IMG/VR virus record: IMGVR_UViG_3300016480_000208
Direction: 5' to 3' (one strand)
Source: a virus
Lineage: Duplodnaviria; Heunggongvirae; Uroviricota; Caudoviricetes; Demerecviridae
DNA: 64,000 nt
Part shown: positions 18,371 to 64,000 of the stretch, piece by piece
Numbering within the stretch: position 1 is the first letter of the stretch
Layout: each line of letters starts with the position of its first letter
Notes under the pieces: generated by a model
Database searches by the model: none
Seen by the model: only the letters and a program-made list of their open reading frames with translations
What the model was told of the DNA's origin: nothing
Position numbers and translations under genes: made by a program

Positions 18371-18471
18371 ACGTCCTCCCTGATTAGCACGCTGATTTCT
18401 CAGCCAAATTTGTAAACCCCATGTTTACAGCACTATTATAGCTCTTATTACGGCATAAGTCAAGCTATTTT

Positions 18472-21438: not shown

Positions 21439-21466
21439 ATTAATATGTAGTTTTTTCATAGCTCGA

Positions 21467-21899: not shown

Positions 21900-22702
21900 G
21901 AACACAGCTTTTTTGTCTGGAAAAACTGGAGCCGCCAGACAGAGCTTGAAGTCTTTAATAACGTCCCAGCTGTATGGGTCATAACCAAGCTACGCCAATA
22001 GTAGCTAAGTTCTGCTATGAAACTATGGTGCCCCAAATACTTCACGTGTAACTTCGTACCTATCCACATTATCCCAGATAGGGCCGGAGAACAGAATCTA
22101 ACCAGAACCGTCATACTACTCAAAAGGATAGCCTAACTAGGATACCGCCTCTAGTTGCTAAAAGATGTTCCCTACTTGGGGGATTTCTGCCCCAAGTAGG
22201 GTATTACTTTTAAGTAGTGTGCTTAAAGAGACAAGCAACTACTCACTCATTAAACCTCCCGATTGGTCAGCACATCTGCTCTAAGGGCATTAAGGGCGCT
22301 ACTAAAGTCAGGGCCAGCACTGGTATGAATTGTTCCGTACAACTCTAGTACTACTGTGCTGGTGCCAATACAGTAGTATCCAACGTCCCCATCGCCTGCA
22401 TCTGGCAGAGGTACAACTGGGTATTGTGTGCTACCAATTTTGAAAAACTCTGGTGCATCAAGGCGCACACTGTAGTCACGATCACTCATTTGCAGGCTCC
22501 TCTGCTTGCTCTGGTTCATTGATGGTGATGGGCTGCAGGCTAGTCAGAGGCTGGACAATCTGTGTGATAATAGCCTGGGCTCCACGTAGAGAGATACCTT
22601 CAGCTTTCACTACAGCGTCCAGGTTGTCGATAATGTGGTTAATTTGAGTATTGGAAATGGCGAATACCTGGTCTTTTACTTGTTCTGTCATGTTTTGCTA
22701 CC

Positions 22703-25880: not shown

Positions 25881-26087
25881 TTATGCTTTCTTGATGAACT
25901 GAACAATCTCTGCTGGGGTACGTAAGACGGTGCCGTCTTCCCTGATAAGAGCAGGAGCACTGCGAATGCCGTACCGCCTAGCAACCTCAATATCAGTTTC
26001 AATATTGAAATCAATATTCTTGCTGACTAGCTCGTTATAAAGTGCTACGCAGGCTTTGCAATTTTCAGTCTTAAACAATGTGATCAT
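25881..26087 (-). CDS. Glutaredoxin / NrdH-like redoxin.
   Basis: 68 aa with a CKAC active-site motif. Confidence 0.55.
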   Translation of the reverse strand: MITLFKTENCKACVALYNELVSKNIDFNIETDIEVARRYGIRSAPALIREDGTVLRTPAEIVQFIKKA

Positions 26088-26089
26088 TT

Positions 26090-26738
26090 CTACCTCTCAA
26101 GTGACCTTCTGGACTACTAAATACGTGAATTAAAATGCTAAACTAACTCTGAACCTTTTAACTGCTGAGTTATTTTTGGGGCCTGTTGCCATAAAACAAG
26201 AATCACCCCAGAATAAACCCCACTTAGGTCATATAGTGGTGCCTAGTAAAAGTATGCCTAGCCAGCAGCTTCAAAGTACTGAGTAGGTACTGGTAGGGGC
26301 TGCTAACTTAGGTCATCAACTACTGAGAAGGCCCCCTATAGGGATTTATCCTGCAAGTGGTTTATATATGCTACAGAGCTTTTGTCGACACTGTAGTTGT
26401 TTAGTTGGTCTATTTTTACTGGCAACACCCCTTCTGAGGCTCTAATAGATATAAAGTTATTAAGGAATTGTGGCTCATATTCCCAAATTATAACCTGGTT
26501 CTAGTTTAGCTAGGTTAGCACACTAATGGCCTCCTAGCGCTACTAGGCAGGGAACTACTTCTCCCTTAGCTGCTCCTGCTTCTACATAACGGTTTCCGTA
26601 CTTAGATTTTTAAATCCTTCCAGAATCTCCGTCTGGTAGGCTACTACCCAGTAACTAAGTACACCAAGCAGAATAGTACCGGCACGAAGAGCTAGAGTTT
26701 TAGGGTCTTTTATATCCTGTAAAAGAAGCTCTATCATA
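26090..26738 (-). CDS. Hypothetical protein, ~216 codons with ~17 in-frame TAG codons. Its TGA stop overlaps the ATG of the downstream redoxin gene.
   Basis: Manual translation; no TAA or TGA in frame for ~650 nt. Confidence 0.45.
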
Positions 26739-26851
26739 GCTAGGATAGAGCTTTTTGGTGGCTGCTACGACACGGTAGTTTTCTCCGTAGGACGAACTCT
26801 CTCAATACTTAGTATATGATATAGCGCCACCAAAGTAAATAAGTTTTTAGG

Positions 26852-26882
26852 ATAAAGACGAAAGCCTCGCAATGCGAGGCTC
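26852..26882 (-). terminator. Rho-independent terminator.
   Basis: agcctcgc aat gcgaggct + T-run (minus). Confidence 0.65.
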
Positions 26883-26887
26883 TTTAT

Positions 26888-27714
26888 TACTCTAGGGATT
26901 GCAGATAATCTAGGGGATTATCATACTCGCCAAACAGGCCATGCCTGGCCATGACGGCATAAATATATTCTGCCTCTTCATCCTCCAGGTCTACAGATAG
27001 AACCATTTCCTTAACGGTATCAATATGCACCAGCTCACAATTTTCATATACCCCAGCTTGTACAAACTGGGTCCACACACCATAAGCCTCTTCCTTAAGA
27101 GCCCCTATAACTGCACGAGCCCACATAGTGGTAAAGATACGATTATTAATATCCTGCTCTTCTGGCAGCCAAATGGTAGCGTTGGTGCTAAAGATTTGAG
27201 AAATTTCTTCCTTGCTCAGGAAAGGCAGTTGATATTCCTCAAACAGCGCATAACACCAATCCAGTGAAGCCTGAACATGCTTTATGGGCTCCTCACCAGA
27301 ACCTACGGAACCCATGGACATGTTATGGGACATGATAATTGTGTTCCGTACTGGGAGAATGACATCACCACACAACATAGTCAGTGTGTGAGCCGAACTG
27401 GCTCGACCATACGCTTCTGTAATTACAACAGCCTGACTGCGCGCAATAGCCGAAGATAGGTGGGATGCTGTGGTTACGTAGCCACCATCACCATTTAATA
27501 CAATAGAGACTGTATCTTGGCTACCAGCAGCGTACAGAGTATCTAGAAGCGGTACCAAAGGTTGATAATCTTCCAGAGCAGAGGGCATGTATGCTCGGTA
27601 GTTAGTGACACCCACACGTTGTGGGTCTTGACTAGCTGTGATAATTACTGACGGAATAGTCTCAGGGCTTACCATGGCATATTGCTGCTGGTCGTTGTTC
27701 AGTTTCTTCATCAC
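26888..27714 (-). CDS. Hypothetical protein (possible serine-peptidase-like fold).
   Basis: 275-aa ORF followed by a hairpin terminator at 26852-26882. Confidence 0.4.
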
Positions 27715-36135: not shown

Positions 36136-36229
36136 ACGATGTATCTCCGAGGCAAAGGTGGATTAGAAGTTAGTTTTCTCTCTCACCTATATAGTATAGC
36201 AAAAATGAAGGTATGCTGCAACTATTATT

Positions 36230-37400
36230 TTAAATCCGGTAGGGCATCTACTAGTTGCTCTATGGAATCAAAATACTTCATAGGGAATCTCTTATCCCTA
36301 TACACTTTAGCTCTAGTTTCCTAGTGCCGGTATCCAGTTCCACCAGATAAAGCTAGGTCTATAGCAATAGGTGTGCGCTTACCGCTCATAAGTCTTTGTA
36401 TGCGTCCAATTAGCTGGGCTATTAATGACTAGTTATCACTACTAGAAGTGAGTATTAGACAAGACAGTATACTTAGTGATAGACCTTCCGAGAATATAGA
36501 AGTAGTGGATACTACGCCCTAGTACTTACCTTCTTGTACTTGTTCCAATATGGTAGCCCTGTTTTTCTCCTCGGATATAATCAATGCCCACTTCTTTCCA
36601 GTTACCTCTTCTAGCACACTGGCAAGTGTTCTGGAGAAATCCACACGGTCTGAGGTGATAAGTGGTATGTGGCCACTAAAATGGGCCTAAGCCTACAGGC
36701 AAACTATCTCCTTTAGATAAACATCCTGGCTATATAGGTCTGTAACCTAGTTGGCCCAACCACCCGGCTGTGCTGTTAGGTTAAACTTCTACTTGGAGTA
36801 GGTTCTGAGAACTATAGGAATCATCACGTTCTCTTCCTTCGGAATTACAACGTTCTTGCTGAACCACCCGGGGAATAAAACGTGCTTACCGTCTTTACGG
36901 ATTAAGGTACCACTAAGGCCTAACTTAATACCGGCAAAACTATGCACTAGTACTTTTTCAAAGGTAGATGCTGGGCAATGGTGCACTTCATCCATAATTA
37001 GTAACCCAAATTCCCTACATAAGGATTGGGCATGCTTTTGTACGGTTTGTATGTTACCAATTACTATAGGAGTGGAGATATCTACCTGGCCACCGCCGAT
37101 TATAGCTGGTGTAAAGCCAAAATGTTTTCTAACCTCTTGCACCCACATGTCTCGAATATCAGTAGTCGTGGTGACTACCAGCGTCTTTAATTGCAATTTG
37201 TGGGCTATAGCTAGCTAAGTAATAGTTTTACCAAACCCAGGTATTGCGTTAATAATCCCGTTTAGCTAAAATCCACCTATCTTAGGGTAACTAAGGAACT
37301 ACCCCATAGCCATACTCTGAGACTCCCTCAATACAAATAGGGGGTCTGGGATTTTCTACGAAACCTTAGAAGTTCTATCTACAAACTCAAACTGACAACC
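36230..37400 (-). CDS. SF2 helicase (DExH) with in-frame TAG codons; boundaries approximate and it may extend toward 37915.
   Basis: Walker A IPGFGKT just upstream of fragment 36789..37196, which carries DEVHH and SGT motifs. Several TAG-only interruptions. Confidence 0.4.
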
Positions 37401-38146
37401 CTAACCTGTTACTCGTTTGCACATGCCAATTATGGTATCTATGTGCCCAGAAGGGAAGGAGTATGCCTGTTTTGAGGTAGAGATAGTCTTAATCTGTAGC
37501 TAGATTGGCTGAAACTTCTGATTAGGGCTCTGCTTGGGCAGTATAAACGTAAGAAGCTCTACCTACTGCTGATGCTCTTCAGGCGTAAGCCGCATATATA
37601 CTTGGTCTGATATAACCACCTTTCGTGGCTAACTTAAAGCTTCTTTCTACGTGAACAATTCTACGTGTCTCCAAAATCTAAAGGCATATAACACATTGCC
37701 CCTAGCTTAACTAGGTAAACATATAAGTAGCCCCTAGAAGCAACTACACGCTCCAGGCCTCCTTCTGGGAGTTTGTACCACATTTCTACCTTACTATCCT
37801 CTAGCTGGTTTGCCTTTATAATTTTAGCCGGCACTACGTCATAGTAGGTACTTTTTACCCACTTAAATACTCTGCCTTGGTTATTTATAAAGTTTAGTGT
37901 TCCACTATTCGCCAACTCCTACAAAGTATTGCATATCTTGTGCAATGGGTACAGCCTATATGATGTCTTGTTGTTTACCTACAACCAGAGACGCCTTTCG
38001 GTATAGGTCTAACCGGGGGCGTTCTAGTCGTCTAGTAAGTATTTCTCCATAGCTGAGGTTATGTACGTTTTTGGCCCATCCTTTTCTATGCTTACATACT
38101 ACCTTAAAGGAAATAGGGGCAAATTTGCCCCTATAAAGTTCTTCAA

Positions 38147-41507: not shown

Positions 41508-42867
41508 TTTACTCATCTCCTTGTTCTTCTTGTGGCACTTTGACTATGCTTTGTGGGATAATTTTCATGTAGTCCCACGACATATGGGTCACGAAGTTGA
41601 TACCTGCTGGGAGGTTACGCAACTTAGCTACTGTAAGTGTCAGAACTGAGCCAGATTTATTAATGGTGAACTACATATCCACCTAATCTAACAAACCTTT
41701 CTACATACGAGTGGCCCCGTTTTCATCTACTTGATACGGTGAAATAACTAGAACTTTTTGCTTCCTGGCTATTGTGTTCTTAAGCATAGTTGCTAACTGT
41801 GTTTGAACCTTCCAATCCAGCCTATCAAGAGTTTTTACGCCCTCAAGTATAAGCTGGTTTACATAGTCAACAATTACCGTGGTTACTAGCCCCGGGTATT
41901 TTGCCTTTAATGTCGTTAGTACTAGATCAATGGTGGAGATTTTTAGATTCCTATCATCAATTACTACTATCGGTAAAATCTGTTTTAGGTGTTGCTTGAA
42001 ATACGTTTCGTGGCTTTGGAATAGGTCCCTCGTAGGAGGCTCTTCTAGTGCTTTTAGTTGATCCATTAAGTAATCAAAACCACCTTCGTACTGTGCGGCT
42101 TGAGAAAGCTACAACTGTACTTGTTCAAAGTGATTCATAGTACCATTACGTAACGCGGAGAATCTAACACCACTAGCTGTCTACCAAAATCTCTGGTATG
42201 TTTCCTCGGCGGTCATTTCGATAGTGCAGTACGGGGCTATTTTACCAACCATCCAGTGGTGGGCACAGATGTTAATACAAAGTGCTGATTTACCAACTCC
42301 TCGGTATCCACCTAGAAGAATAAGCTCTTCTTCTTTTCCTCCCAGAAACTCCATATCCCAGCGCTCGGATAACCCAAGGGTTGAGAACTAGGTTTGGGTT
42401 TCTTCCTCCGCACGAAACATTGAAATTTCGTTACCGTAGAATACTTTGTCAGAACTGTCTATCTCCTCTTCCACTAGCATCTAGATGGCCTAGAGTTCCT
42501 CTACTATCTCCTGTGGCCCTAACAAGGGTAAGTTGTCTGCAAACTTGTCTAACTTCTCGATAGCGATATGCTGGATGTGCTCGGCTTCTAGTTGCTCCAA
42601 CTATAGGGAGATTGGTACGTCCGGTAGCTCCACCTTTTCAAGTGCTAGTACCTAATGTAGGACGGAAGAGTTTCTGGAATTAAACAACTTTAACTCTTCA
42701 AAAGAGGGGACTCTGGCATGTGCTTCGTAGAAGTTATTTACTGATCGATATACGCTGGAGAATAGGCCCGAGAAGTACTACGATTTCAGCTTTTCCATCT
42801 AAGCTAGCTTTTGCTCCTGACTATCAGACTATAGCAAAAGCCCTAGAGTTGTGCTTTGTAGTGACAT
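41508..42867 (-). CDS. DnaB-family replicative helicase with ~11 in-frame TAG codons.
   Basis: Walker A GGYRGVGKSAL. The listed 41701..42066 fragment ends on TAG, and reading through reaches TAA at 41508. Confidence 0.5.
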
Positions 42868-42886
42868 CTAAGCTCCTTGAGTAATA

Positions 42887-42920
42887 AAACAAAACAAAAA
42901 AGGAGGCACTTAGGCCTCCT
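42887..42920 (-). terminator. Rho-independent terminator after gene 42947..43722.
   Basis: aggaggc actta gcctcct plus a T-run (minus strand). Confidence 0.7.
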
Positions 42921-56316: not shown

Positions 56317-56319
56317 TCA

Positions 56320-56348
56320 AGGGAGCCTCAGGGCTCCCTTTGTTTTTG
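56320..56348 (+). terminator. Rho-independent terminator after the OMP-like gene.
   Basis: agggagcc tcag ggctccct followed by tttgttttt. Confidence 0.8.
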
Positions 56349-56358
56349 GAGAGAATAT

Positions 56359-58527
56359 ATGCCTATTTATGTTGGCAACACTGGGGCCTAGAAAATATTA
56401 GGTCTAACAAAAACCTCCCAGGATTAGTGGAACGTAAAGCCAGATACTATATTCCACTCCTCCCTGCCGTATGTAGAAGTAATCGAGCATTATATGCCTG
56501 TTGCGTATAAACACTAGGCTGCACCTTACGACTATCTAGTAAAAGATTATAACCCAGACTACTGGGGGACAGTAACAGTCTACGACTGGTTTAATTACTA
56601 CAACTACGCACCAATAAATGGTAATAAGTATCACAACATTCACTACTATGAGTAGGTATTAACTGATTAGGTGAAATCCTTCTTAAGATACACCAACAAT
56701 TAGTACATACTAATATACCACTTGAGCAATGGCGCCCAAGTAATGATGCCTTAGCATAATTCAGACATAAAGACCACGCACAAAGGGGATTTGCAACATC
56801 TGGACTAGACCGAAGGCAACATATAGACACCAAACTAGGGTTATAGAGCTAGAATGGATCAACTCAAGGCTATTGATAGCCCTTGGGACTTAACGGGGTA
56901 TCAGGACGTATACTGGTTCCAGTACGCTTTTGTGCAGCCTTCCGCAAATGGTGTAGTAACAACACCTAATGGAATAGTGAGTACCCTTGATATTACTGTT
57001 ACTGGTATTACTATTCTTCAGTTAGTGGGGTTAAACCTTGTATAGGCAACCCCAGGAGCAAACCCGCTATCTACCTAGCCCTTGAACCCTTAGCAGCAAG
57101 GGGCTGTTCTTATTTCTAGGGATTCCTTGAATATATAGGGAGTAGAATATAAAAACAAAAAATTCCTACAGGTGCTAACTAACCCGATTACCACAACAGG
57201 CAGTTAGGCGGTAAACGTATCTACTTAGAACTTATAGGTTACAAATCTGTACGCCTCTTCTCCCAGCTTCCAATGGGGGACTAGACTAGACTATCTAGCG
57301 AAATATCGTGACGGGGGCTTCATGAACGTAGGTATAACCTAGGGTTCTTCACAGTACACCTTAATAAATTATCCTCTGGGGCAGGAGTGGTACTCTAATG
57401 TCCCTGCTGTAGGTGCTTGGGGCGTCCTGCCAGGCAATAACATGACAACATATAGTGGGGCTGTACCAGGGTACTGGCCTTATAGTTTTTATGGTGGTGC
57501 GTCAGTTGGGGTTAATTCTTGGAAAGGTAGTATTAGGAAACCCAAAGAGCTTATTTAGCAGTCTTGGTAGCACACCTTTACTAGACTTAGCTAGACCGAT
57601 ACCTGGACTCTAGGTCAGTACTTTAACCAAGGGCTAGCAAATCGCCTTGGTTCTGAGGTTCAATACTTCTAGGGCGTGTAGATTACCTCTCTAAGTAAGT
57701 AGTAGGGTATTGCGTTCGATAGTTCACACCCTAGCATCAATTAGGGTGCCCAATATAAGATGTTCTCGCCAGATTCGCAAATGGTTGCAAGAATTGGTAA
57801 AACATACGCAGCAGCTATCCCACAAGATACCTTTAGCGGGTCACCCTACTATTCTGGGACACGGAATTTCCCATAGTACGAAGATGATATTCTTGTATCA
57901 ATAATTGATTTGGGATAGGAAGAGCAGTAGACCAACAACTTCTTCCTAACATCCTACATTCAAGACCAGGATTTAATTAACCTGTCCTATGCTAATACCT
58001 TGAGGTTTATTGTATCTGGGGGCGTTATCTCATACCAAGAGAATAACTTTAACCCAAGCTACAACATACCTAAGTAGTGCTTATTCTATAGATAGCCGTA
58101 TGATGGGGTTGGTGGGCAATGGTACAAGTCTGTGCAAGCCAATAATGGTTCCCCTGTATGGTTTGGTTATCCAGATTGGTACTACAGCAACTACGACTTA
58201 CCTACAGATATGATAGGATTCCCTTTCCAATCAAACCATATACGTAATAGGTAGGTTTCTGTGGTAAGCTTGCCAGTAGGTGCACAATATATCTTGAAAG
58301 AAGAGCTAAACCCACAGTCAAGCTACGCGTGGAACGGGCCAGACCAAGTTAGGGGGGTACGAAGCTCCATCTAGTATCTTCGTAGAATCTCTTAGTCCAG
58401 AATTGAGGTGCGCCTCAACGTACATAAGACACAGTAGCACAGTGTTTTCTCTAATGGTGGGTATCTTGGTTTCGGTACTTTTGGGTCTAGCGTAGTTCAA
58501 AACTTCTAGATATGCCCTATACTGTAA
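56359..58527 (+). CDS. Long TAG-rich gene: 723 codons with 36 in-frame TAG and no TAA or TGA until the terminal TAA. The Y/N/G/W/T-rich protein may be structural or receptor-binding.
   Basis: Codon-by-codon check against coordinates. The listed ORF 56854..57045 is an in-frame fragment. ATG at 56359. Confidence 0.6.
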
Positions 58528-59086: not shown

Positions 59087-59518
59087 ATGACGCGAGTAAA
59101 CACTATAGACCCTAAGCTATTGCTGGATCAACACCTAACAAGGGAGTACCAAGAAATAACTCGCGTCAGCTCCCTAGCGAGAGCATACACAGCAAAAGAC
59201 AAGGTACCAAAAGAATATGTTTTAGGTACAGGTCATGTTCTGTTCTTTTACGATAAGGGTGAATTTTTACGCAAAAGATGTGAACTCTTATACGCAGAGT
59301 GCAAACGTAGAGGTTTTAACGTAGAGTACAAAGAGTATAGGCCACACCCAGAAGGTCTTAATAATGACTGGAATCCTAGTCTGACAGACCATCTTGTAAA
59401 CCTCTCGCGGTTGCAAGAGAAACTAGATATGAAACCAGACTGGTATAAGTATCTTAGAGACGACCTAAATGACCCATATCACTATCAAAATCTACCTTGC
59501 CTAGTAAATCTGCAATAA
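59087..59518 (+). CDS. denV: Pyrimidine-dimer DNA glycosylase (T4 endonuclease V, DenV family).
   Basis: MTRVNTIDPKLLLDQHLTREYQEITRV...GTGHVLFFYDKGEFLRKR...WYKY aligns closely to T4 endonuclease V. Confidence 0.8.
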   Translation: MTRVNTIDPKLLLDQHLTREYQEITRVSSLARAYTAKDKVPKEYVLGTGHVLFFYDKGEFLRKRCELLYAECKRRGFNVEYKEYRPHPEGLNNDWNPSLTDHLVNLSRLQEKLDMKPDWYKYLRDDLNDPYHYQNLPCLVNLQ

Positions 59519-59526
59519 AATAAAGA

Positions 59527-59555
59527 TTGCACAACAGCCAATTATTTGAGATAAT
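59527..59555 (+). promoter_or_regulatory. Promoter of the same family (TTGCAC-17-GATAAT). It is followed by the same 'ataataatcaYatgaaatcgRga' leader seen before the suppressor tRNA.
   Basis: Seen in sequence. Confidence 0.55.
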
Positions 59556-59942
59556 AATCACATGAAATCGGGAACGTTAAGTTGCTTATTTCATGAAGTG
59601 GCGTAACGCAGAGCGGTGCACCGACTCATACGTGTGACATAGCTTCCTTTAATTAGTGAAGCCCCACGAGGGCAGACCAAGCTCCTCAGAAAACAATCTT
59701 GGAGATTCTAGTTAAGTCCACAGCGGAGTAGACAGTAACTAATATCTGCTAGAGGGTGCCGATCTTGTGTGTTGAAGGCTACTAGGGCTACCACACAATA
59801 CTTACGCAATGCCAGCTTAATAAGCGATTAGCTGTAAGTCCCTGACACTGAAAAACTATCGGAAAACTTCTGGGTTAGATACCAGACTGGAAGTGAGTTA
59901 CATAGCCCGAGTGCTTCAGACTTCCACACTTTAAAATAAAAG

Positions 59943-59971
59943 TTGCTATTCACTCTGATTCTTGTTACAAT
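59943..59971 (+). promoter_or_regulatory. Promoter (TTGCTA-17-TACAAT).
   Basis: Seen in sequence. Confidence 0.5.
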
Positions 59972-60034
59972 ATTAGAATCAAAGAACGAAAAGAAACTTG
60001 GTTGGTGAGCAGTGAAAGCGTTGTAAAATACTTC

Positions 60035-60063
60035 TTGCCCAATACTGAAAAGTTTGTTATAAT
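60035..60063 (+). promoter_or_regulatory. Promoter (TTGCCC-17-TATAAT).
   Basis: Seen in sequence. Confidence 0.5.
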
Positions 60064-60276
60064 AATCGTACAAAATCAAAAAGGCGTTGGCTTCTCCTCG
60101 ACGGGTGCCAAAAAATTACCGCCCACTAATTAGTCGCCAAGAGTGTGACTATAGCTGGGAAGAAGCTGGAATCGTCAACCAGCACTCTGTTGGCGCAGAG
60201 TTAGTATATTGTAGGCCGGGGCCGCGCTGAAATGCAACTTAAGGCCCTAGGAGCTAACGACCTTTTTGATTTTATT

Positions 60277-60363
60277 GGTGAATATGAGCAATGTGGTTAG
60301 CTTCAGCGGTCTGTAAAACCGTGCTCTCTGGGCCTGTTGGTTCGATTCCAACATTCACCACCA
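60277..60363 (+). tRNA. tRNA-Tyr (GUA), type II long variable arm.
   Basis: Acceptor ggtgaat/attcacc+a+cca, T-arm gttgg-ttcgatt-ccaac, anticodon loop ctGTAaa. Confidence 0.6.
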
Positions 60364-60369
60364 ATTTCT

Positions 60370-60455
60370 GGAGGTTTTGAGCAGTATGGCGAGCTCAGGT
60401 GGCTGTAACCCACTAACTTCTATGTTTATAGGTTCGAATCCTATAACCTCCACCA
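60370..60455 (+). tRNA. tRNA-Tyr (GUA) second copy, type II.
   Basis: Acceptor ggaggtt/aacctcc, D-stem gagc/gctc, anticodon loop ctGTAac, T-arm atagg-ttcgaat-cctat. Confidence 0.6.
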
Positions 60456-60461
60456 ATTTCT

Positions 60462-60577
60462 GGACTTGTAGCGACAACGGTTCGATAGGTGTACCCTGTG
60501 TGCGGAGTAATCTGTAATCACTATCAGGTAAAATCCCTATGGAGCGGTGACTGGTTGGAATCCAGTAAAGTCCACCA
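60462..60577 (+). ncRNA. Oversized tRNA-like element (116 nt) with a canonical acceptor and T-arm but an unresolved core.
   Basis: 5' ggacttg pairs with 3' aaagtcc+a+cca; T-arm actgg-ttggaat-ccagt; no standard D or anticodon arms could be placed. Confidence 0.3.
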
Positions 60578-60584
60578 ATTTAAT

Positions 60585-60659
60585 ATTGGCGTGTTCTAAC
60601 GGTAAGATGCAGGTCTCCAAAACCTTGCGATGAGGGTTCGAATCCTTCCGCCTTTGCCA
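60585..60659 (+). tRNA. tRNA-Trp (CCA)-like with A1-U72, G73 and two U:U acceptor mismatches (possibly degenerate).
   Basis: Anticodon stem-loop caggt-ctCCAaa-acctt, T-arm gaggg-ttcgaat-ccttc, 3' cgcctttgcca. Confidence 0.4.
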
Positions 60660-60665
60660 GTTAAT

Positions 60666-60741
60666 AGACCACTAACTTAATGGTTAGAGTATCCGCCTCT
60701 TAAGCGGAAGGTTCTGAGTTCGAGTCTCAGGTGGTCTACCA
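60666..60741 (+). tRNA. tRNA-Lys (CUU).
   Basis: Acceptor agaccac/gtggtct, D actt/gagt, anticodon tccgc-ctCTTaa-gcgga, T-loop ttcgagt. Confidence 0.8.
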
Positions 60742-60923
60742 GTTTTGCAAGTATAATGTATGAGAAGAATGAGGTAAGCGTGGGGTAACGTTCTCAAGGG
60801 TACACGGTTAGAAAGACACTCGTAATATTAGTCGTCCAGCCCTTATGCCGTGTGAAGTCTAGCCTTTAGGGCAGACCAGATTCCTGATAAAGCCTACAGA
60901 TTATACTTGCAAATTTATTTAAT

Positions 60924-60997
60924 GCTCGGTTATTTTAACGGGAGAATACTTCCCTTACAAGGAAGAGGAGTTGGTTCGATTCCAACACTGAGTACCA
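60924..60997 (+). tRNA. tRNA-Val (UAC).
   Basis: Acceptor gctcggt/actgagt, anticodon cttcc-ctTACaa-ggaag, T-arm gttgg-ttcgatt-ccaac. Confidence 0.7.
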
Positions 60998-61003
60998 AAC
61001 AGT

Positions 61004-61079
61004 TGAGACGTTGTGTAATTGGTTAGCACATGTGACTTTGACTCACATAGTTAGGGTTCGAGCCCCTACGTCTCTGCCA
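61004..61079 (+). tRNA. tRNA-Gln (UUG).
   Basis: Anticodon tgtga-ctTTGac-tcaca, T-arm taggg-ttcgagc-cccta, 3' ...cgtctctgcca. Confidence 0.65.
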
Positions 61080-61173
61080 AACACTCTAAACCTGAATTAA
61101 CAGGGGAAGGGGGCCGTGAGTGTACTATGTAATCCTCCAGGTTATAGAGTAAATATACGGCTCTGCCAATTTT

Positions 61174-61250
61174 GGGTTAGAAGCACATAAGGTATGTGCG
61201 GTCGCCTGTTAAGCGAATGGTAGAAGGTTCGAATCCTTCCTGGCCCGCCA
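61174..61250 (+). tRNA. tRNA-Asn (GUU).
   Basis: Acceptor gggttag/ctggccc, anticodon gtcgc-ctGTTaa-gcgaa, T-arm gaagg-ttcgaat-ccttc. Confidence 0.7.
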
Positions 61251-61264
61251 AATTAAAACAAAGA

Positions 61265-61293
61265 TTGCTATCAAGCTGACAACTTGATATAAT
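61265..61293 (+). promoter_or_regulatory. Promoter of the same family (TTGCTA-17-tgaTATAAT) inside the tRNA island.
   Basis: Near-identical to the 62389 module. Confidence 0.65.
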
Positions 61294-61315
61294 ATCTTCA
61301 GAAATTAAGAATAAT

Positions 61316-61393
61316 GCGTCACTAATTCAATTGGTTTAGAATATCCGGCTTTTAACCGGAAGGTTGTAGGTTCGAGTCCTACGTGGCGTACCA
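61316..61393 (+). tRNA. tRNA-Lys (UUU).
   Basis: Acceptor gcgtcac/gtggcgt, D attc/gaat, anticodon tccgg-ctTTTaa-ccgga, T-arm gtagg-ttcgagt-cctac. Confidence 0.8.
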
Positions 61394-61400
61394 TTTTAAT

Positions 61401-61475
61401 GCTCCTATCGACTAGCGGTTAGGTCACTACCCTTTCAAGGTAGTAACATGGGTTCGAATCCCATTAGGAGTACCA
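61401..61475 (+). tRNA. tRNA-Glu (UUC).
   Basis: Acceptor gctccta/taggagt, anticodon ctacc-ctTTCaa-ggtag, T-arm atggg-ttcgaat-cccat. Confidence 0.8.
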
Positions 61476-61490
61476 TTTAAGAGAGTTAAA

Positions 61491-61814
61491 ATGTATAATA
61501 ACGGAAAAGTAGCAGAAATAACTGCAATGCTGCACTATGCAGAAGCGGGTTATGAGATATTTCTCCCACAAGGTTCATAGTCCTGTGACTTTATTGCTCT
61601 TTCCTCAGAAAGACTTATAAGGGTAGAGGTTAAGTCCACGGGTTAGGTTAACGGGGAAATAGACCTAAGAAAAAGAACCCATACTACTACCACAAAAACT
61701 CAGCATTTTAACTCTAATAAGAGTGATGAAACTTTCTTGTATAATCTACTTACAAAGTAGTTTAAGATAGTGTAGTCAAACACTTTAGAAGGTAGACGTT
61801 CTATACGCGTCTAA
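61491..61814 (+). CDS. Small PD-(D/E)XK nuclease (Hjc-like resolvase / homing-endonuclease-like) inside the tRNA island, 4 in-frame TAG codons; its 3' extent is uncertain.
   Basis: GKVAEITAMLHYAEAGYEIFLPQGS*SCDFIALSSERLIRVEVKSTG matches the Hjc-type E...D...EVK motif. RBS gagag. Confidence 0.4.
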
Positions 61815-61906
61815 TACCAGAACTTCCTTTGCTGTCCACGGACGCTATGGGTTGCTGGAGCAAGCAAGGCTCTGCCCAGCGTGAAGTCGCCTTGCAACAT
61901 TTTAAT

Positions 61907-61981
61907 GCTCTGTTAGTTTAATGGAGAGAACACTTCGCTACGGACGAAGAGGTCTGGGTTCGACTCCTAGACGGAGTACCA
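61907..61981 (+). tRNA. tRNA-Arg (ACG).
   Basis: Acceptor gctctgt/acggagt, anticodon cttcg-ctACGga-cgaag, T-arm ctggg-ttcgact-cctag. Confidence 0.8.
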
Positions 61982-62290
61982 CTTTTGCCTTGGCCGGCAA
62001 GAAGTCTAGCTAGTAGACTATAACAGCAAGCACGGTTATGGGCCGGATAGCTCATACGTCCAGCCACCCGACGTAAAATAGGGGTTCGTTATGGCAGCTT
62101 ATCGAAGTAAAGCTGGTCGGATATAGCCTAACCGTGAGAAAGGCTGGCCTGTTCCCTCTAACAAAGTCAGGTGGAAGTATCTCTTAGATGTCCAGAGCGG
62201 ATCCCGTTGGGTTGATGCGTGTGTCGGTCTAATTCATACAAGCCATCAGGATTAGCCATCCATAGAGGGGTTTTTAAAGCGTTTTCTGGC

Positions 62291-62367
62291 GTGGGCATAG
62301 GTTATGTCTGGTTAAACTCCACGTTGTGACCGTGGGAAAATGGGTTCAAATCCCATTGCTCACCCCA
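62291..62367 (+). tRNA. tRNA-His (GUG).
   Basis: Acceptor gtgggca/tgctcac + C73, anticodon ccacg-ttGTGac-cgtgg, T-arm atggg-ttcaaat-cccat. Confidence 0.7.
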
Positions 62368-62388
62368 GAGAACGTTTTAAAATAATAA

Positions 62389-62417
62389 TTGCTATCAAGG
62401 TATTAACTTGATATAAT
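62389..62417 (+). promoter_or_regulatory. Strong promoter upstream of the suppressor tRNA (TTGCTA, 17-bp spacer, extended tgaTATAAT).
   Basis: ttgcta 62389-94 and tataat 62412-17. The same module is at 61265-93 (before tRNA-Lys UUU) and 59527-55. Confidence 0.7.
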
Positions 62418-62446
62418 AATCATATGAAATCGAGAGTGGTTTTGAT

Positions 62447-62521
62447 GGGGCATTAGCTCAATGGGAGAGCGGCGGACTCTAAATTCGCTGGTTAACGGTT
62501 CGAGTCCGTTATGCTCCACCA
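62447..62521 (+). tRNA. Amber-suppressor tRNA, anticodon CUA, on a tRNA-Ala-like body (G3:U70, A73). Predicted to decode TAG as alanine.
   Basis: Full cloverleaf: acceptor ggggcat/atgctcc+A+cca with the G3:U70 wobble; D-arm tagctcaatgggagagc (E. coli tRNA-Ala-like); anticodon arm gcgga-ctCTAaa-ttcgc; variable tggtt; T-arm aacgg-ttcgagt-ccgtt. A promoter lies 30 nt upstream. Confidence 0.85.
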
Positions 62522-62533
62522 AAACTACTTTTC

Positions 62534-62609
62534 GGGGCTATAGTTTACATGGGTAAAACCGCTGCCTTGCAAGCAGCAGAATTCGGTTCAATTCCGAATA
62601 GCTCCACCA
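62534..62609 (+). tRNA. tRNA-Ala (UGC).
   Basis: Acceptor ggggcta/tagctcc (G3:U70), A73; anticodon gctgc-ctTGCaa-gcagc; T-arm ttcgg-ttcaatt-ccgaa. Confidence 0.8.
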
Positions 62610-62615
62610 AATAAT

Positions 62616-62714
62616 ACAGGTAAAGTCCAGTGGTTGCTGGTACGAATCAATAAGAAATCTATTTGGGTAGTCCAGTTAGGTTCCGCGGAGGTTCGACTCC
62701 TCATACCTGTTCCA
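62616..62714 (+). ncRNA. Oversized tRNA-like element (99 nt) with a perfect 7-bp acceptor and a T-arm but an unresolved core.
   Basis: 5' acaggta pairs with 3' tacctgt+t+cca; T-arm ggagg-ttcgact-cctc; no convincing anticodon arm found. Confidence 0.3.
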
Positions 62715-62720
62715 AATAAT

Positions 62721-62798
62721 CCGTGTGTAGGCTAGTCAGGTTAGGTCGTCTGGTTTGGGACCAGAAAGTCGAAGGTTCGAATCCTTCCACACGGACCA
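62721..62798 (+). tRNA. tRNA-Pro (UGG).
   Basis: Acceptor ccgtgtg/cacacgg, anticodon tctgg-ttTGGga-ccaga, T-arm gaagg-ttcgaat-ccttc. Confidence 0.8.
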
Positions 62799-62822
62799 AT
62801 TTTCTTAGTAAGGATCTCTGTA

Positions 62823-63022
62823 TGAGAAATAAAACTCGTATGTTTATTGTAGAGCATAAAGGTGAACAGTATATTCAGAAAACTGGAACCTTAAATTTTA
62901 TTTCTCTAAAAGATGGAAGTACGATTCCGGGGGACATAGCCGAAGAATTGGATAGACTGAATAAGTTTAAACATGATTTCGGGTCAAAAACTGGGTGGAA
63001 ATCCGTCTTTACTATAGTTTAA
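62823..63022 (+). CDS. Small hypothetical protein between tRNA-Pro and the tRNA-Met-like gene.
   Basis: ATG with RBS aagga. The longer listed ORF 62723..63022 starts inside tRNA-Pro. Confidence 0.35.
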
Positions 63023-63027
63023 TTGAC

Positions 63028-63101
63028 GCGCTTGGGAGGTAAGGCATCTCACTGGTCTCATAAGCCAGTAGAAGTGGGTTCGATTCCCACTTGCGCAACC
63101 A
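63028..63101 (+). tRNA. tRNA-Met (CAU)-like elongator with an imperfect acceptor stem.
   Basis: Anticodon ctggt-ctCATaa-gccag, T-arm gtggg-ttcgatt-cccac, 3' ttgcgcaacca; the 5' acceptor has two mismatches. Confidence 0.45.
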
Positions 63102-63119
63102 AATAACCAAGGATACTTA

Positions 63120-63809
63120 ATGAAAGTACTAATTGCCTGTGAAAGATTTGGGGTAATTCGAGATACGTTTATCAGAGCAGGCCATGATGCTTGGTCTTGT
63201 GATCTAGTGCCTACGGAAGTACCAGGCCCCCATATTCAGGGAAGTGCTCTTGACATTCTAGACCAAGGCTGGGATTTGATGATTGCTCATCCTGATTGCA
63301 CATATTTAACTGTTGCAGCAGCTTGGGCATTAAAAGACCCTAACTTTGAGAAGTACCCCGGTGTTGGCTATCACATGAAAGTGAAAGAAGGCACACTAAC
63401 TGGAGAAGCTCGTAGAAAAGCCCAGCAAGATGCTCTGTGGTTTGTAGAGCAGTTAGCTAAAGCCCCTATTCCTAGGATTGCTATCGAGAACCCAGCAGTA
63501 GGTGCTATCAACAAGAATGTGAATTTGAAACAGTATGGATTTGCTAGTAACTTCCCAACCCAGATTATTCATCCGTACCAGTTTGGGCATGATGCTAGTA
63601 AGGCTACTGGGTTAGCTTTGAAGAATCTTCCTAAGTTAGAACATACACTCTTTATTGAGCCTCGTATTGTAGCTGGCAAAGAGCGATGGGCTAATCAAAC
63701 AGATTCTGGGCAAAATAGATTGTCGCCCTCGACTAGTAGGGCTATGGAGCGTGCTAAGACCTATCAAGGTTGGGCAGATGCTATGGTCTCTCAATGGGGT
63801 TCATTATAA
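63120..63809 (+). CDS. DNA C5-cytosine methyltransferase-like protein (weak motif evidence).
   Basis: PDC-containing motif IV-like IAHPDCTYL and ENx-like IAIENPAVG; RBS aaggatactta ATG. Confidence 0.35.
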   Translation: MKVLIACERFGVIRDTFIRAGHDAWSCDLVPTEVPGPHIQGSALDILDQGWDLMIAHPDCTYLTVAAAWALKDPNFEKYPGVGYHMKVKEGTLTGEARRKAQQDALWFVEQLAKAPIPRIAIENPAVGAINKNVNLKQYGFASNFPTQIIHPYQFGHDASKATGLALKNLPKLEHTLFIEPRIVAGKERWANQTDSGQNRLSPSTSRAMERAKTYQGWADAMVSQWGSL

Positions 63810-63956
63810 TATTGAATGCCTTGTACTTTTCCTGCTTGGCATTGGTAGGTGGTTCACCGGCCTCAAAGGGTGAATATTGGTAGTAGAAATGTGTGAGACC
63901 GTCAGAGGGCACTACCCTTCCTCTGTCCCAGTATTAAGGTAAGCTGGACTAATTTA

Positions 63957-64000
63957 ATGCTCTCGTGATGGAATTGGTATACATACTACGCTTAGAACGT
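63957..64000 (+). tRNA. 5' part of another tRNA truncated by the window end.
   Basis: The leader 'aatttaatgctc' matches the ...ttTAATGCTC leaders of tRNA-Val, Glu and Arg. The sequence begins gctctcg tg atgg aattggta... Confidence 0.3.

What the first reader, a model, noticed from the sequence alone, without database searches (positions are those of the whole stretch)
60270..63101. tRNA island architecture: 15 or more tRNAs and tRNA-like elements, internal promoters, an embedded nuclease ORF, oversized tRNA-like elements and unexplained spacers
Clear tRNAs: Tyr x2 (type II), Trp-like, Lys(CUU), Val, Gln, Asn, Lys(UUU), Glu, Arg, His, Sup(CUA), Ala, Pro and Met-like. A small PD-(D/E)XK nuclease ORF (61491-61814, with TAGs) sits inside the island, as homing endonucleases do in T4/T5 tRNA clusters. 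Two elements (60462-60577, 116 nt; 62616-62714, 99 nt) have perfect acceptor stems, T-arms and CCA but bodies too long for normal tRNAs; they may be intron- or insert-containing or degenerate. A ~300-nt spacer (61982-62290) and 61080-61173 (ending ctctgcca like tRNA-Gln) remain unexplained. Several tRNAs share a ...ttTAATGCTC leader, and one more starts at 63957 at the window edge.
Basis: seen in the sequence. Interest (0 to 1): 0.6.

Follow-up and report, generated by a model that had tools for sequence, protein, structure and literature searches.

The report
Phage tRNA island with alanine amber-suppressor
This is the tRNA gene cluster of a T5-like Aeromonas phage; its layout is ordinary, but one tRNA is an alanine tRNA that reads the stop codon TAG, which this phage uses about 190 times inside its genes.

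Summary
The window comes from a Shenzhenvirus-like phage (a T5 relative infecting Aeromonas). The layout matches the annotated T5 tRNA region: repeated sigma-70-type promoters, tRNAs 6-12 nt apart, tRNA-like and other non-tRNA RNAs between them, and inserted ORFs. The two oversized elements are not intron-bearing tRNAs. E2 keeps its fold through compensatory changes but has no anticodon arm. E1 has no informative variation. The 309-nt spacer is conserved in six of six relatives, with invariant blocks. The 94-nt spacer and the nuclease-like ORF are clean insertions, each placed right after a tRNA's CCA. The most important part is the "Sup(CUA)" tRNA. It has the alanine identity set (G3:U70, A73) in three sequence variants. 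TAG positions in this phage's genes align preferentially with alanine in T5 proteins and in 112 helicase homologues, and not with glutamine. This genus was already flagged in the literature as genetic code 15 (TAG = Gln). TAG = Ala appears to be unreported for phages. The functions of the spacer RNAs remain unknown.

The parts
59528..59555 (+). Promoter-like site P1 (TGCACA-16-GATAAT). First copy of a 58-nt repeated promoter family.
   Evidence: family D2; conserved in relatives
59563..59930 (+). P1 RNA: a conserved non-coding stretch of about 370 nt between P1 and P2. It shares motifs with S1 and E1.
   Evidence: D13, D15, D17; z = -1.0
59943..59971 (+). Promoter-like site P2 (TTGCTA-17-TACAAT).
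60035..60063 (+). Promoter-like site P3 (TTGCCC-17-TATAAT, with an extended -10).
60066..60276 (+). L1: a structured leader RNA closed by a 24-bp helix (60072-60095 with 60249-60273), ending at tRNA-Tyr.
   Evidence: (MFE -76.5 kcal/mol, z = -4.54, 0 of 200 shuffles)
60277..60363 (+). tRNA-Tyr(GUA) #1, type II.
   Evidence: (scores only on tRNA-Sec, 30 bits)
60370..60455 (+). tRNA-Tyr(GUA) #2.
60462..60577 (+). E1: a 116-nt tRNA-like RNA with an acceptor stem, T-arm and CCA but a non-tRNA body.
60585..60659 (+). tRNA-Trp(CCA), with two U.U mismatches in the acceptor stem.
60666..60741 (+). tRNA-Lys(CUU).
60742..60923 (+). S1: a structured insert closed by a 14-bp perfect inverted repeat (60744-60757 with 60900-60913). 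It is present or absent among relatives.
   Evidence: (I13)
60924..60997 (+). tRNA-Val(UAC).
61004..61079 (+). tRNA-Gln(UUG).
61080..61173 (+). S2: a 94-nt insert specific to this phage, ending in a copy of the tRNA-Gln 3' end (CTCTGCCA).
61174..61250 (+). tRNA-Asn(GUU).
61265..61293 (+). Promoter-like site P4 (TTGCTA-17-TATAAT).
61316..61393 (+). tRNA-Lys(UUU).
61401..61475 (+). tRNA-Glu(UUC).
61491..61814 (+). ORF A: a PD-(D/E)XK endonuclease-like ORF of 107 codons with 4 TAG. It lies in a 339-nt insert (61476-61814) that is absent from every relative.
61815..61906 (+). S3: a conserved leader of about 90 nt in front of tRNA-Arg.
61907..61981 (+). tRNA-Arg(ACG).
61982..62290 (+). S4: a conserved 309-nt non-coding element. 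It has invariant blocks (about 62119-62185 and 62234-62290) and variable hairpins.
62291..62367 (+). tRNA-His(GUG).
62389..62417 (+). Promoter-like site P5 (TTGCTA-17-TATAAT), immediately upstream of the CUA tRNA in all relatives.
62447..62521 (+). tRNA-Ala(CUA): an amber-reading tRNA with G3.U70, G1-C72, G2-C71, G4-C69 and A73.
62534..62609 (+). tRNA-Ala(UGC).
62616..62714 (+). E2: a 99-nt tRNA-like RNA. It has a 7-bp acceptor stem, a D-like hairpin, a conserved single-stranded linker, a long hairpin, a T-arm and U-CCA.
62721..62798 (+). tRNA-Pro(UGG).
62824..63022 (+). Small ORF B (66 aa, preceded by AAGGA). No family match. Also present in phage AhSzw-1.
63027..63101 (+). tRNA-Met(CAU)-like, with a C1.A72 mismatch and a weak score (32.4 bits).
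63120..63809 (+). ORF C: a DNA methyltransferase-like ORF (229 aa, 0 TAG). The insert that carries it is absent from relatives.
   Evidence: H8; phrog_757, E = 1e-43
63817..63956 (+). Conserved non-coding leader in front of the next tRNA.
63957..64000 (+). 5' part of tRNA-Leu(UAG), cut off by the end of the window.

Best explanation
Region 59.5-64 kb is the promoter-proximal part of the early 'tRNA region' of a Shenzhenvirus-like phage, a T5 relative that infects Aeromonas.

**Transcription and processing (inferred).** Five sigma-70-type promoters of one repeated design drive units with no predicted terminators. Within these units, CCA-encoding tRNA genes sit 6-12 nt apart. Host RNase P and 3' trimming enzymes would release the tRNAs and, in doing so, also the RNAs that lie between them.

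**Modular build (shown).** Every difference from related phages is a whole cassette gained or lost right at or next to a tRNA's CCA. The cassettes include two tRNA-like RNAs (E1, E2), a structured RNA (S1), a 94-nt insert (S2) and two ORF cassettes (a PD-(D/E)XK endonuclease-like gene and a DNA methyltransferase-like gene). L1 and S4 are conserved in all relatives examined; S3 is absent from the metagenomic relative L013.

**Role of the tRNA set (inferred).** Most tRNAs supply A/U-ending codon readers for a 43%-GC phage in a GC-rich host.

**The amber-reading tRNA (sequence features shown, charging inferred).** The first gene behind promoter P5 is an alanine tRNA with anticodon CUA. It lets the ribosome read the roughly 190 in-frame TAG codons of this phage's genes as alanine.
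For: **Origin of the window.** The tRNA region is 94.5% identical to Aeromonas phage AhP_Mru1 over the 60% of the query that aligns, and four other Shenzhenvirus genomes carry the same tRNA order.

**T5 precedent.** The T5 reference annotation lists the following inside its tRNA region: internal promoters, HNH endonuclease genes, three tRNA-like RNAs (two of them listed as stable) and five other stable RNAs of unknown function.

**tRNAs and promoters.**
- The promoters form a 58-nt repeated family and are conserved in relatives.
- No + strand terminator is predicted.

**Cassettes.** The junctions of gained or lost cassettes are clean.

**Non-tRNA RNAs.**
- E2 forms 100% of the tested pairs in two phages, with 3 of 7 acceptor pairs changed on both sides, and folds to the same architecture in both.
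- L1 folds with z = -4.54 and has a 24-bp closing helix.
- S4 has invariant blocks plus compensatory hairpins.

**ORFs.** Pfam and PHROG matches support the assignments of ORF A and ORF C; ORF B has no family match.

**TAG is read as sense.**
- The coding fraction of 1-59520 rises from 0.74 to 0.93 when TAG is treated as sense. There are 192 TAG codons in 35 of 93 ORFs.
- Alignments to T5 proteins run straight through the TAGs, and all 29 homologous genes end in TAA or TGA.

**TAG means alanine.**
- At 72 TAG positions the aligned T5 residue is Ala 19 times (26% against a 7.3% background, p = 7e-7).
- In a likelihood test, Ala beats Ser by 18.7 nats and Gln by 33.5 nats.
- In 112 helicase homologues, Ala makes up 20.4% of the TAG columns against 5.4% background, while Gln is depleted 0.4-fold.
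- The CUA tRNA keeps G3.U70, A73 and G1-C72/G2-C71/G4-C69 in three sequence variants, with compensatory changes lower in the stem.
- The T5 record notes that T5 tRNA-Ala becomes an effective amber suppressor when its anticodon is replaced.
Against: - No expression, processing or aminoacylation data exist here. The promoters, RNA ends and charging are all inferred.
- The number of promoter-like matches is not above what shuffled sequence gives (11 found against 8.1 +/- 2.6). The case for the promoters rests on their repetition and conservation.
- S4 as a whole is not thermodynamically unusual (z = +0.46).
- Only seven closely related genomes carry these RNAs, so covariation statistics are weak. 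With two sequences, the E2 shuffle control cannot do better than 63/500.
- E1 is nearly identical in its four copies and gives no covariation evidence.
- ORF A scores 25.8 bits against a Pfam cut-off of 26.1.
- Ala is the aligned T5 residue at only 26% of TAG sites, against a 38.5% self-match for ordinary Ala codons.
- In NrdA, only 1 of 7 TAGs faces Ala in TS3 and Akh-2.
- Mixed or context-dependent decoding is therefore not excluded. How RF1 is outcompeted is unknown.
Confidence: 0.8

Rival explanations
1. The oversized elements E1 and E2 are ordinary tRNAs that carry an intron or insert, or are decaying tRNA pseudogenes with no function of their own.
For: - With the intron option, ARAGORN can read E1 as tRNA-Arg(CCU) with a 38-nt intron. 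At a relaxed threshold it reads E2 as tRNA-Ser(AGA).
- Degenerate tRNAs do occur in these islands. AhSzw-1 has a decayed Met-like cloverleaf where AhSzq-1 has tRNA-Met.
- E1 shows no informative variation.
Against: - No group I intron or any other Rfam family matches.
- By established knowledge, a 38-nt insert is far too short to be a self-splicing bacterial tRNA intron, and bacteria lack the enzymes that splice short tRNA introns.
- The stems forced around the 'intron' contain mismatches.
- E2 has no U33-type anticodon loop, yet its acceptor stem and long hairpin are kept by compensatory changes in TS3.
- The T5 reference genome annotates oversized tRNA-like RNAs, two of them as stable species.
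Confidence: 0.2
2. TAG in this phage is read as glutamine (genetic code 15), as public gene calls and a published survey assume.
For: - Cook et al. 2024 list AhSzq-1, AhSzw-1 and Akh-2 as translation table 15.
- Metagenome gene calls for the helicase carry Q at every TAG position.
- TAG = Gln is the experimentally validated case in crAss-like phages.
Against: - The Q residues in those gene calls follow from the translation table that was chosen. They are not evidence.
- Gln is depleted at TAG columns (0.4-fold) and loses to Ala by 33.5 nats.
- The CUA tRNA has the AlaRS identity set. By established tRNA identity rules it lacks the GlnRS elements G73 and U1-A72.
- Seventeen TAGs lie inside hydrophobic segments of a membrane protein.
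Confidence: 0.05
3. The conserved 'spacers' (S4, L1, S3, P1 region) are not functional RNAs. They are either leftovers kept by recent common ancestry and recombination, or sites that act on DNA, such as nuclease or recombination targets or nick or replication signals.
For: - S4 is not thermodynamically special.
- The invariant blocks give no covariation information.
- All indels fall at fixed junctions, which points to active recombination in this region.
- T5 DNA carries sequence-specific nicks.
- Homologues were found in this genus only.
Against: - The S4 blocks are 100% identical in genomes that differ by 20-30% in the flanks and even in the tRNAs. Between the blocks, hairpins change sequence but keep their pairing.
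- The 24-bp closing helix of L1 and its internal helices are far beyond chance.
- All of these elements lie on the transcribed strand, between promoters and tRNAs.
- The T5 reference genome annotates stable RNAs at equivalent places.
Confidence: 0.2

Closest known systems
tRNA gene region of bacteriophage T5 (NC_005859, about 28-41.6 kb)
   Same: - Same virus family (Demerecviridae).
- Dense one-strand array of about 25 tRNAs.
- Many internal early promoters.
- Small ORFs and endonuclease genes between the tRNAs.
- tRNA-like RNAs (RNA1 and RNA2 listed as stable, RNA3 as putative) and other stable RNAs of unknown function (RNAI, III, IV, 2H, X), some lying directly upstream of tRNA-His and tRNA-Arg.
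   Different: - The window's non-tRNA elements show no detectable sequence similarity to the T5 RNAs.
- The embedded nuclease is of the PD-(D/E)XK type, not HNH.
- T5 has no CUA tRNA annotated in its tRNA region and was used here as the standard-code reference.
Stop-codon-recoded phages using genetic code 15 (crAss-like and Lak phages)
   Same: - In-frame TAG in bona fide genes.
- A phage-encoded tRNA with anticodon CUA.
- Low apparent coding density under the standard code.
   Different: - TAG reads as alanine, not glutamine.
- The phage is a cultured-type T5 relative of a gammaproteobacterium.
- TAG-rich and TAG-free genes are interleaved among early replication genes, rather than TAG being confined to late genes.
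UAG = alanine in mitochondria of the green algae Hydrodictyaceae and Neochloris (Zihala and Elias 2019, PMC6821328)
   Same: The same codon is reassigned to the same amino acid, and the reassignment is carried out by a tRNA(CUA) derived from tRNA-Ala.
   Different: That case is an organelle genome with its own altered release factor. Here a virus must impose the reading inside a host that uses TAG as a stop codon.
I-Ssp6803I-type PD-(D/E)XK homing endonucleases (Pfam PDDEXK_5); free-standing endonuclease genes in the T4 and T5 tRNA clusters
   Same: - Small nuclease-fold ORF with a D...E-x-K motif.
- Located in a tRNA context.
- Present or absent among close relatives, with clean junctions.
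   Different: - It scores just under the Pfam cut-off (25.8 against 26.1 bits).
- It is not inside an intron.
- No cleavage site is known.
- It contains four TAG codons, so it can be made only when TAG is read through.

Membership tests
Canonical tRNA (Rfam RF00005), tested for E1 and E2 | Score at or above the family's gathering threshold (29 bits). | tested here: not met
   E1 has no tRNA hit even at E <= 5. E2 scores only 20.1 bits on tRNA-Sec (threshold 47). ARAGORN at default settings calls neither.
Canonical tRNA (Rfam RF00005), tested for E1 and E2 | 7-bp acceptor stem, discriminator base, 3' CCA and a T-arm. | tested here: met
   E2 forms 7 of 7 acceptor pairs, followed by U and CCA. 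E1 forms 6 of 7, followed by A and CCA. Both have T-stems. The E1 T-loop (UUGGAAU) is non-canonical.
Canonical tRNA (Rfam RF00005), tested for E1 and E2 | Anticodon arm: a 5-bp stem and a 7-nt loop with U33. | tested here: not met
   In E2 the position is taken by a conserved unpaired linker (about 12-15 nt) plus a long hairpin. In E1 it is taken by an irregular body of about 70 nt.
Intron-containing bacterial tRNA (group I intron in the anticodon loop) | A group I intron core inside the tRNA. | tested here: not met
   No match to any Rfam intron family at E <= 5. The largest insert ARAGORN can define in E1 is 38 nt.
T5-type phage tRNA region | Demerecviridae genome with a one-strand tRNA array. 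| tested here: met
   The nearest genomes are Shenzhenvirus (Demerecviridae). Twenty-nine window genes have T5 homologues. There are 15 tRNAs plus one cut tRNA on the + strand.
T5-type phage tRNA region | Several internal early promoters within the array. | tested here: inconclusive
   Five consensus-like sites form a repeated family that is conserved in relatives. The raw match count is not above shuffled sequence, and no transcription data exist.
T5-type phage tRNA region | Stable non-tRNA RNAs, including tRNA-like ones, between the tRNAs. | not testable with these tools
   Conserved structured candidates exist. Whether they are stable in the cell needs RNA data.
Sequence homologues of T5 RNAI, III, IV, 1, 2, 2H, 3 and X | Detectable sequence similarity to the T5 RNAs. 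| tested here: not met
   blastn finds only T-arm words. nhmmer profiles of S1, S3, S4, L1 and P1 find nothing in T5 1-50 kb.
PD-(D/E)XK endonuclease, Pfam PDDEXK_5 (PF11645) | Profile score at or above the curated cut-off (26.1 bits). | tested here: inconclusive
   25.8 bits, E = 1.2e-5, over residues 4-77. phrog_5018 matches at E = 2.6e-12. A sequence search of the PDB found nothing.
PD-(D/E)XK endonuclease, Pfam PDDEXK_5 (PF11645) | Catalytic D ... (D/E)-x-K motif. | tested here: met
   D33 and E46-V-K48 in the translation, read directly from the sequence.
Mobile (homing-type) endonuclease gene | Sporadic presence among close relatives, with precise junctions. | tested here: met
   Absent from all five published relatives. 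The 339-nt insert is flanked by TACCA directly after tRNA-Glu. Only distant homologues exist, in unrelated phages.
Stop-codon-recoded phage, genetic code 15 | In-frame TAG in conserved genes, together with a phage tRNA(CUA). | tested here: met
   tRNA at 62447-62521.
Stop-codon-recoded phage, genetic code 15 | TAG is decoded as glutamine. | tested here: not met
   Ala is favoured and Gln disfavoured in two independent alignment tests. The tRNA carries Ala identity elements.
tRNA-Ala (a substrate of alanyl-tRNA synthetase) | A G3.U70 wobble pair in the acceptor stem, with A73 and G2-C71. | tested here: met
   Present in the window's CUA tRNA, in the variant shared by five published relatives and in the metagenomic variant L013.
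tRNA-Ala (a substrate of alanyl-tRNA synthetase) | Actual charging with alanine. | not testable with these tools
   This needs an aminoacylation assay or proteomics.

The most novel reading that the evidence does not exclude
Shenzhenvirus phages, and a wider set of metagenomic T5-like relatives, use a genetic code not previously described for any virus or bacterium. TAG means alanine, and the reading is imposed by a phage tRNA-Ala(CUA) that has its own promoter inside the tRNA island.

If this is right, current GenBank records (genes split into fragments) and public protein collections (Q placed at every TAG) are wrong for this group.

Because these phages are cultured on Aeromonas hydrophila, they would be a tractable system for asking how and why a virus overrides a host stop codon.

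In addition, the island would hold several new families of structured RNA (S4, L1, E2).
Probability: 0.7. Interest if true: 0.75.

Novelty: new variant of a known kind. Interest (0 to 1): 0.55.

Why it matters
**The island itself.** It is a further example of the T5 design and would not surprise a phage specialist.

**What goes beyond that.**
1. The suppressor tRNA is of the alanine type. The published assignment of this genus to code 15 (TAG = Gln) is therefore probably wrong, and every TAG-containing protein of these phages is currently either split into fragments or mistranslated in public databases.
2. As far as I know, stop-codon recoding has been studied almost entirely in uncultured gut phages. 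Here it occurs in isolates that grow on a culturable host. Its mechanism (competition with RF1, timing relative to tRNA expression) and its purpose can therefore be tested directly.
3. TAG-rich and TAG-free genes are interleaved among early genes. This does not fit the current idea that recoding mainly gates late genes.
4. The island contains non-coding elements that are more conserved than the tRNAs, and their function is unknown.

Tried and rejected
**Searches that found nothing.**
- Rfam at permissive thresholds over 59300-64000 gave nothing besides tRNA-clan hits and chance-level matches.
- blastn and nhmmer of the spacers against the T5 stable RNAs and the T5 tRNA region gave only T-arm words.
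- nhmmer of the spacers against the whole window found no paralogues.

**Searches for more relatives.**
- IMG/VR, searched with the endonuclease V protein and with two DNA patterns, returned one distant locus and AhSzw-1 itself.
- The single metagenome scan returned one close relative, L013.
- As a result there are too few diverged copies for proper covariation statistics.
- blastn of E1, E2 and S4 against 50,697 phage records found full-length homologues in this genus only.

**Structure of ORF A.**
- A sequence search of the PDB found nothing relevant.

**Hypotheses rejected.**
- The 167-codon TAG-sense ORF across 61815-62315 is not a gene. It runs through tRNA-Arg. The S4 blocks show no synonymous variation. 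The indels among relatives are not multiples of three.
- tmRNA was rejected (ARAGORN -m found none).
- Riboswitches, ribozymes, 6S RNA, GOLLD and ROOL were rejected as identities for the spacers because Rfam gives no match.

**Not attempted.** I did not build a covariance model. The alignments are too shallow, and S4 is too long for the calibration limit.

Full report

Yes.
- Rfam's tRNA model passes its curated threshold for 14 of them. The first Tyr reaches only 30 bits, and only on the tRNA-Sec model.
- All 15 tRNAs, and both oversized elements, end in an encoded CCA. Where nothing else intervenes, consecutive genes are 6-12 nt apart.
- The stem of 'Trp-like' has two U.U mismatches. 'Met-like' has a C1.A72 mismatch and a weak score of 32.4 bits.
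- TTTAATGCTC occurs four times. GCTC is the start of the acceptor stem of Val, Glu, Arg and the cut tRNA at 63957, so only TTTAAT is leader.
- The cut element matches tRNA-Leu(UAG) of phage TS3.

**2. Where does the window come from?**

- The region is 94.5% identical to Aeromonas phage AhP_Mru1 over the 60% of the query that aligns, and it matches four other Shenzhenvirus genomes (Demerecviridae, T5 relatives). One metagenomic contig, L013, is a further member.
- Twenty-nine window genes have T5 homologues.
- The T5 reference record annotates, inside its own tRNA region, many internal promoters, HNH endonuclease genes, the 'tRNA-like stable RNAs' RNA1 and RNA2, a putative tRNA-like RNA3, and five further stable RNAs 'with unknown functions'. 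Some of these lie directly upstream of tRNA-His and tRNA-Arg.
- The 'architecture' in the finding is therefore the known T5 design.

**3. Anatomy**

*Promoters.* Five promoter-like sites (59528, 59943, 60035, 61265, 62389) share an A/T-rich upstream part, a TTGC-type -35 and a TGnTATAAT-type -10. Four of them belong to one 58-nt repeat family, and they are conserved in relatives. The raw number of consensus matches is not above shuffled sequence, so the case rests on repetition and conservation. No + strand terminator is predicted.

*Cassette junctions.* Comparison with relatives shows that the island is built from cassettes. Each difference is a whole unit gained or lost right at or next to a tRNA's CCA.
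- S2 (61080-61173) is a 94-nt insert found only here. It ends in a copy of the tRNA-Gln 3' end.
- The nuclease ORF lies in a 339-nt insert flanked by TACCA.
- The E2 module is flanked by CCAAATAAT.
- S1 (a spacer of about 180 nt) is present in AhP_Mru1 and Akh-2 and absent from TS3, AhSzw-1, AhSzq-1 and L013.
- A 0.7-kb insert carries a DNA methyltransferase-like ORF (phrog_757, E = 1e-43, no TAG).

**4. The oversized elements**

*E2.*
- Its only homologue is in TS3, at 75% identity.
- Both copies fold on their own into the same architecture:
  - a 7-bp acceptor stem;
  - a D-like hairpin with a 4-nt loop;
  - a conserved unpaired linker, ACGAAUCAAUAAGA;
  - a long hairpin;
  - a 4-bp T-stem, followed by U and CCA.
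- All 19 tested pairs form in both copies. Three of the seven acceptor pairs changed on both sides. Slid controls pair at only 29-50%. The long hairpin also changes sequence while keeping its pairing.
- There is no anticodon arm with U33.
- E2 is therefore a conserved tRNA-like RNA, not a decoding tRNA and not a decaying one.

*E1.*
- It is present in AhP_Mru1, AhSzw-1 and AhSzq-1 at 97-100% identity, so it gives no covariation evidence.
- ARAGORN can read it as a tRNA only by declaring a 38-nt intron flanked by mismatched stems. No intron family matches.

By its features, E2 belongs to the same class as T5 RNA1 and RNA2; E1 may as well, though decay is less well excluded for it. Neither shows sequence homology to them.

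**5. The spacers**

*S4 (61982-62290).* It is present in all six relatives.
- Two blocks, about 62119-62185 and 62234-62290, are identical in every genome. The same genomes differ by 20-30% elsewhere, and the CUA tRNA itself is only 83% identical between the window and the published relatives.
- Between and before the blocks, hairpins differ in sequence but keep their pairing (13 pairs with changes on both sides).
- Its overall folding energy is ordinary (z = +0.46).

*L1 (60066-60276).* This is the leader in front of tRNA-Tyr. It is far more structured than chance (z = -4.54, 0 of 200 shuffles). It is closed by a 24-bp perfect helix, and it has a variable internal hairpin with compensatory changes. 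Such a helix could be an RNase III site. That is an inference.

*S1.* It is closed by a 14-bp perfect helix and has one compensatory pair and one replaced hairpin relative to Akh-2.

*S3 (61815-61906).* It is conserved in the five published relatives and absent from L013.

*Common points.* None of these elements matches Rfam or the T5 RNAs. Their function is unknown. My working view is that they are co-transcribed RNAs whose ends are set by tRNA processing, as T5's annotated stable RNAs may be. A DNA-level role for the invariant S4 blocks is not excluded.

**6. The nuclease ORF**

- ORF 61491-61814 matches Pfam PDDEXK_5 at E = 1.2e-5 (25.8 bits against a cut-off of 26.1) and phrog_5018 at E = 2.6e-12. 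It carries a D33...E46-V-K48 motif.
- It is absent from all relatives. Its only homologues are distant ones in unrelated phages. This fits a mobile endonuclease gene.
- Its four TAG codons mean it can be made only if TAG is read through.

**7. The CUA tRNA and the TAG codons**

*TAG is read as sense.*
- Many genuine genes in the window contain in-frame TAG. Examples are the D10-type helicase (16), the DnaB-like D6 homologue (14), NrdA (7), NrdB (4) and an ORF of unknown function (36). Neighbouring genes such as DNA polymerase and the ligases have none.
- Treating TAG as sense raises the coding fraction of 1-59520 from 0.74 to 0.93. There are 192 TAG codons in 35 of 93 ORFs.
- Alignments to T5 run through the TAGs, and all 29 homologous genes end in TAA or TGA.

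*Which amino acid?*
1. At 72 TAG positions the aligned T5 residue is Ala 19 times (26% against 7.3%, p = 7e-7).
2. Using substitution frequencies taken from the same alignments, Ala is the best explanation by 18.7 nats over Ser and 33.5 nats over Gln.
3. In an independent alignment of 112 helicase homologues (36-45% identity), Ala makes up 20.4% of the TAG columns against 5.4% overall. It is the majority residue at three columns, including the position after the Walker A lysine. Gln is depleted.
4. Seventeen TAGs lie within hydrophobic segments of a membrane protein.
5. The tRNA has G1-C72, G2-C71, G3.U70, G4-C69 and A73. By established tRNA identity rules this is the recognition set of alanyl-tRNA synthetase, which does not read the anticodon. 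The set is kept in three sequence variants whose lower stem pairs differ by compensatory changes.
6. The T5 record itself notes that T5 tRNA-Ala becomes an effective amber suppressor when given that anticodon.

*Remaining doubts.* The non-Ala partners of TAG are mostly S, E, K, Q and L, which are one-step mutational neighbours of TAG. In NrdA only 1 of 7 TAGs faces Ala in TS3 and Akh-2. Many TAGs therefore seem to be recent substitutions at sites that tolerate a change.

**8. What is already known?**

- Cook et al. 2024 list AhSzq-1, AhSzw-1 and Akh-2 as predicted translation table 15, with coding capacity rising from about 56-59% to 83-84% for AhSzw-1 and Akh-2. TAG reassignment in this genus is therefore on record.
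- The original phage papers did not note it, and the GenBank records split NrdA into fragments.
- Public metagenome gene calls put Q at every TAG of the helicase.
- I found no paper that assigns alanine to TAG in a phage. The paper library is incomplete, so this is not proof of absence.
- UAG = Ala with an alanine-type tRNA(CUA) is known in some green-algal mitochondria.

**9. Verdict**

The island is an ordinary member of a known kind. Its amber-reading tRNA makes it a new variant of phage stop-codon recoding. The conserved non-coding elements are real but unexplained.

Noticed in passing
window 1-59520, e.g. 56317-58527 (+), 36225-37706 (-), 41509-42909 (-), 26084-26917 (-), 21456-22289 (-), 17798-18424 (-): There are about 190 in-frame TAG codons in 35 of 93 ORFs. 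TAG-rich and TAG-free genes are interleaved among early replication genes: DNA polymerase, the ligases and the origin-binding protein have 0, the D10 helicase has 16 and the D6 helicase has 14. This does not look like an early/late switch.
   Followed up: yes
window 56317-58527 (+): A 737-codon ORF with 36 TAG codons, the densest in the window. It has no T5 homologue, and its function was not examined.
   Followed up: no
proteins P0001-P0007; GenBank MG676225 region in L006: Public gene calls for relatives either split TAG-containing genes into fragments (NrdA appears as three CDS) or translate TAG as Q. Helicase homologues at 63-66% identity, also with Q at shared TAG positions, point to a wider recoded clade in metagenomes, with contigs up to 122 kb.
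   Followed up: partly
window 62534-62609 versus L001 5160-5234 and L002 4513-4587: The window's tRNA-Ala(UGC) is only 56-57% identical to that of its closest relatives but 77% identical to E. coli tRNA-Ala(UGC). The gene at this position appears to have been replaced by a host-like copy.
   Followed up: partly
L013 6478-6640: In the metagenomic relative, the CUA tRNA and tRNA-Ala(UGC) end in ...CTCCACAAA, without an encoded CCA. Their counterparts in the window and in the published relatives do encode CCA. The CUA tRNA there is a third sequence variant that still carries G3.U70.
   Followed up: partly
L001 5975-6048; L002 5365-5437; L008 5339-5412 (downstream of the window's end): After the second tRNA-Met, relatives carry a tRNA-like gene that ARAGORN calls SeC(UCA) in one phage and leaves with an undefined anticodon in others. 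AhP_Mru1 annotates it as a second suppressor tRNA.
   Followed up: no
window 62291-62367: tRNA-His seems to lack an encoded G-1. The stem reads G1-C72 with discriminator C73, and the preceding base is C. Akh-2's annotation marks its copy as a pseudo-tRNA.
   Followed up: no
window 60502-60530, 59723-59751, 60868-60903, 59669-59692: The centre of E1 resembles a stretch of the P1 RNA and is 81% complementary over 21 nt to the 3' part of S1. S1 in turn shares a 24-nt motif (AGGGCAGACCA...) with the P1 RNA. This suggests a family of related modules, or RNA-RNA pairing.
   Followed up: no
window 60924, 61401, 61907, 63957: Four tRNAs (Val, Glu, Arg and the cut Leu) share the same top of the acceptor stem, GCUC...GAGU-A-CCA, with a G1.U72 wobble pair.
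   Followed up: no
window 62616-62714: E2's D-like hairpin (4-nt loop) and its T-loop UUCGACU resemble bacterial tRNA-Sec, judged from my own recollection of the E. coli selC sequence. This explains the weak Rfam tRNA-Sec hit. No UCA anticodon loop is present.
   Followed up: partly
L008 3140-3219: AhSzw-1 has a degenerate cloverleaf, with CAU in a 9-nt loop and a 5-bp acceptor stem, at the position where AhSzq-1 has an intact tRNA-Met. This is an example of tRNA decay within these islands.
   Followed up: partly
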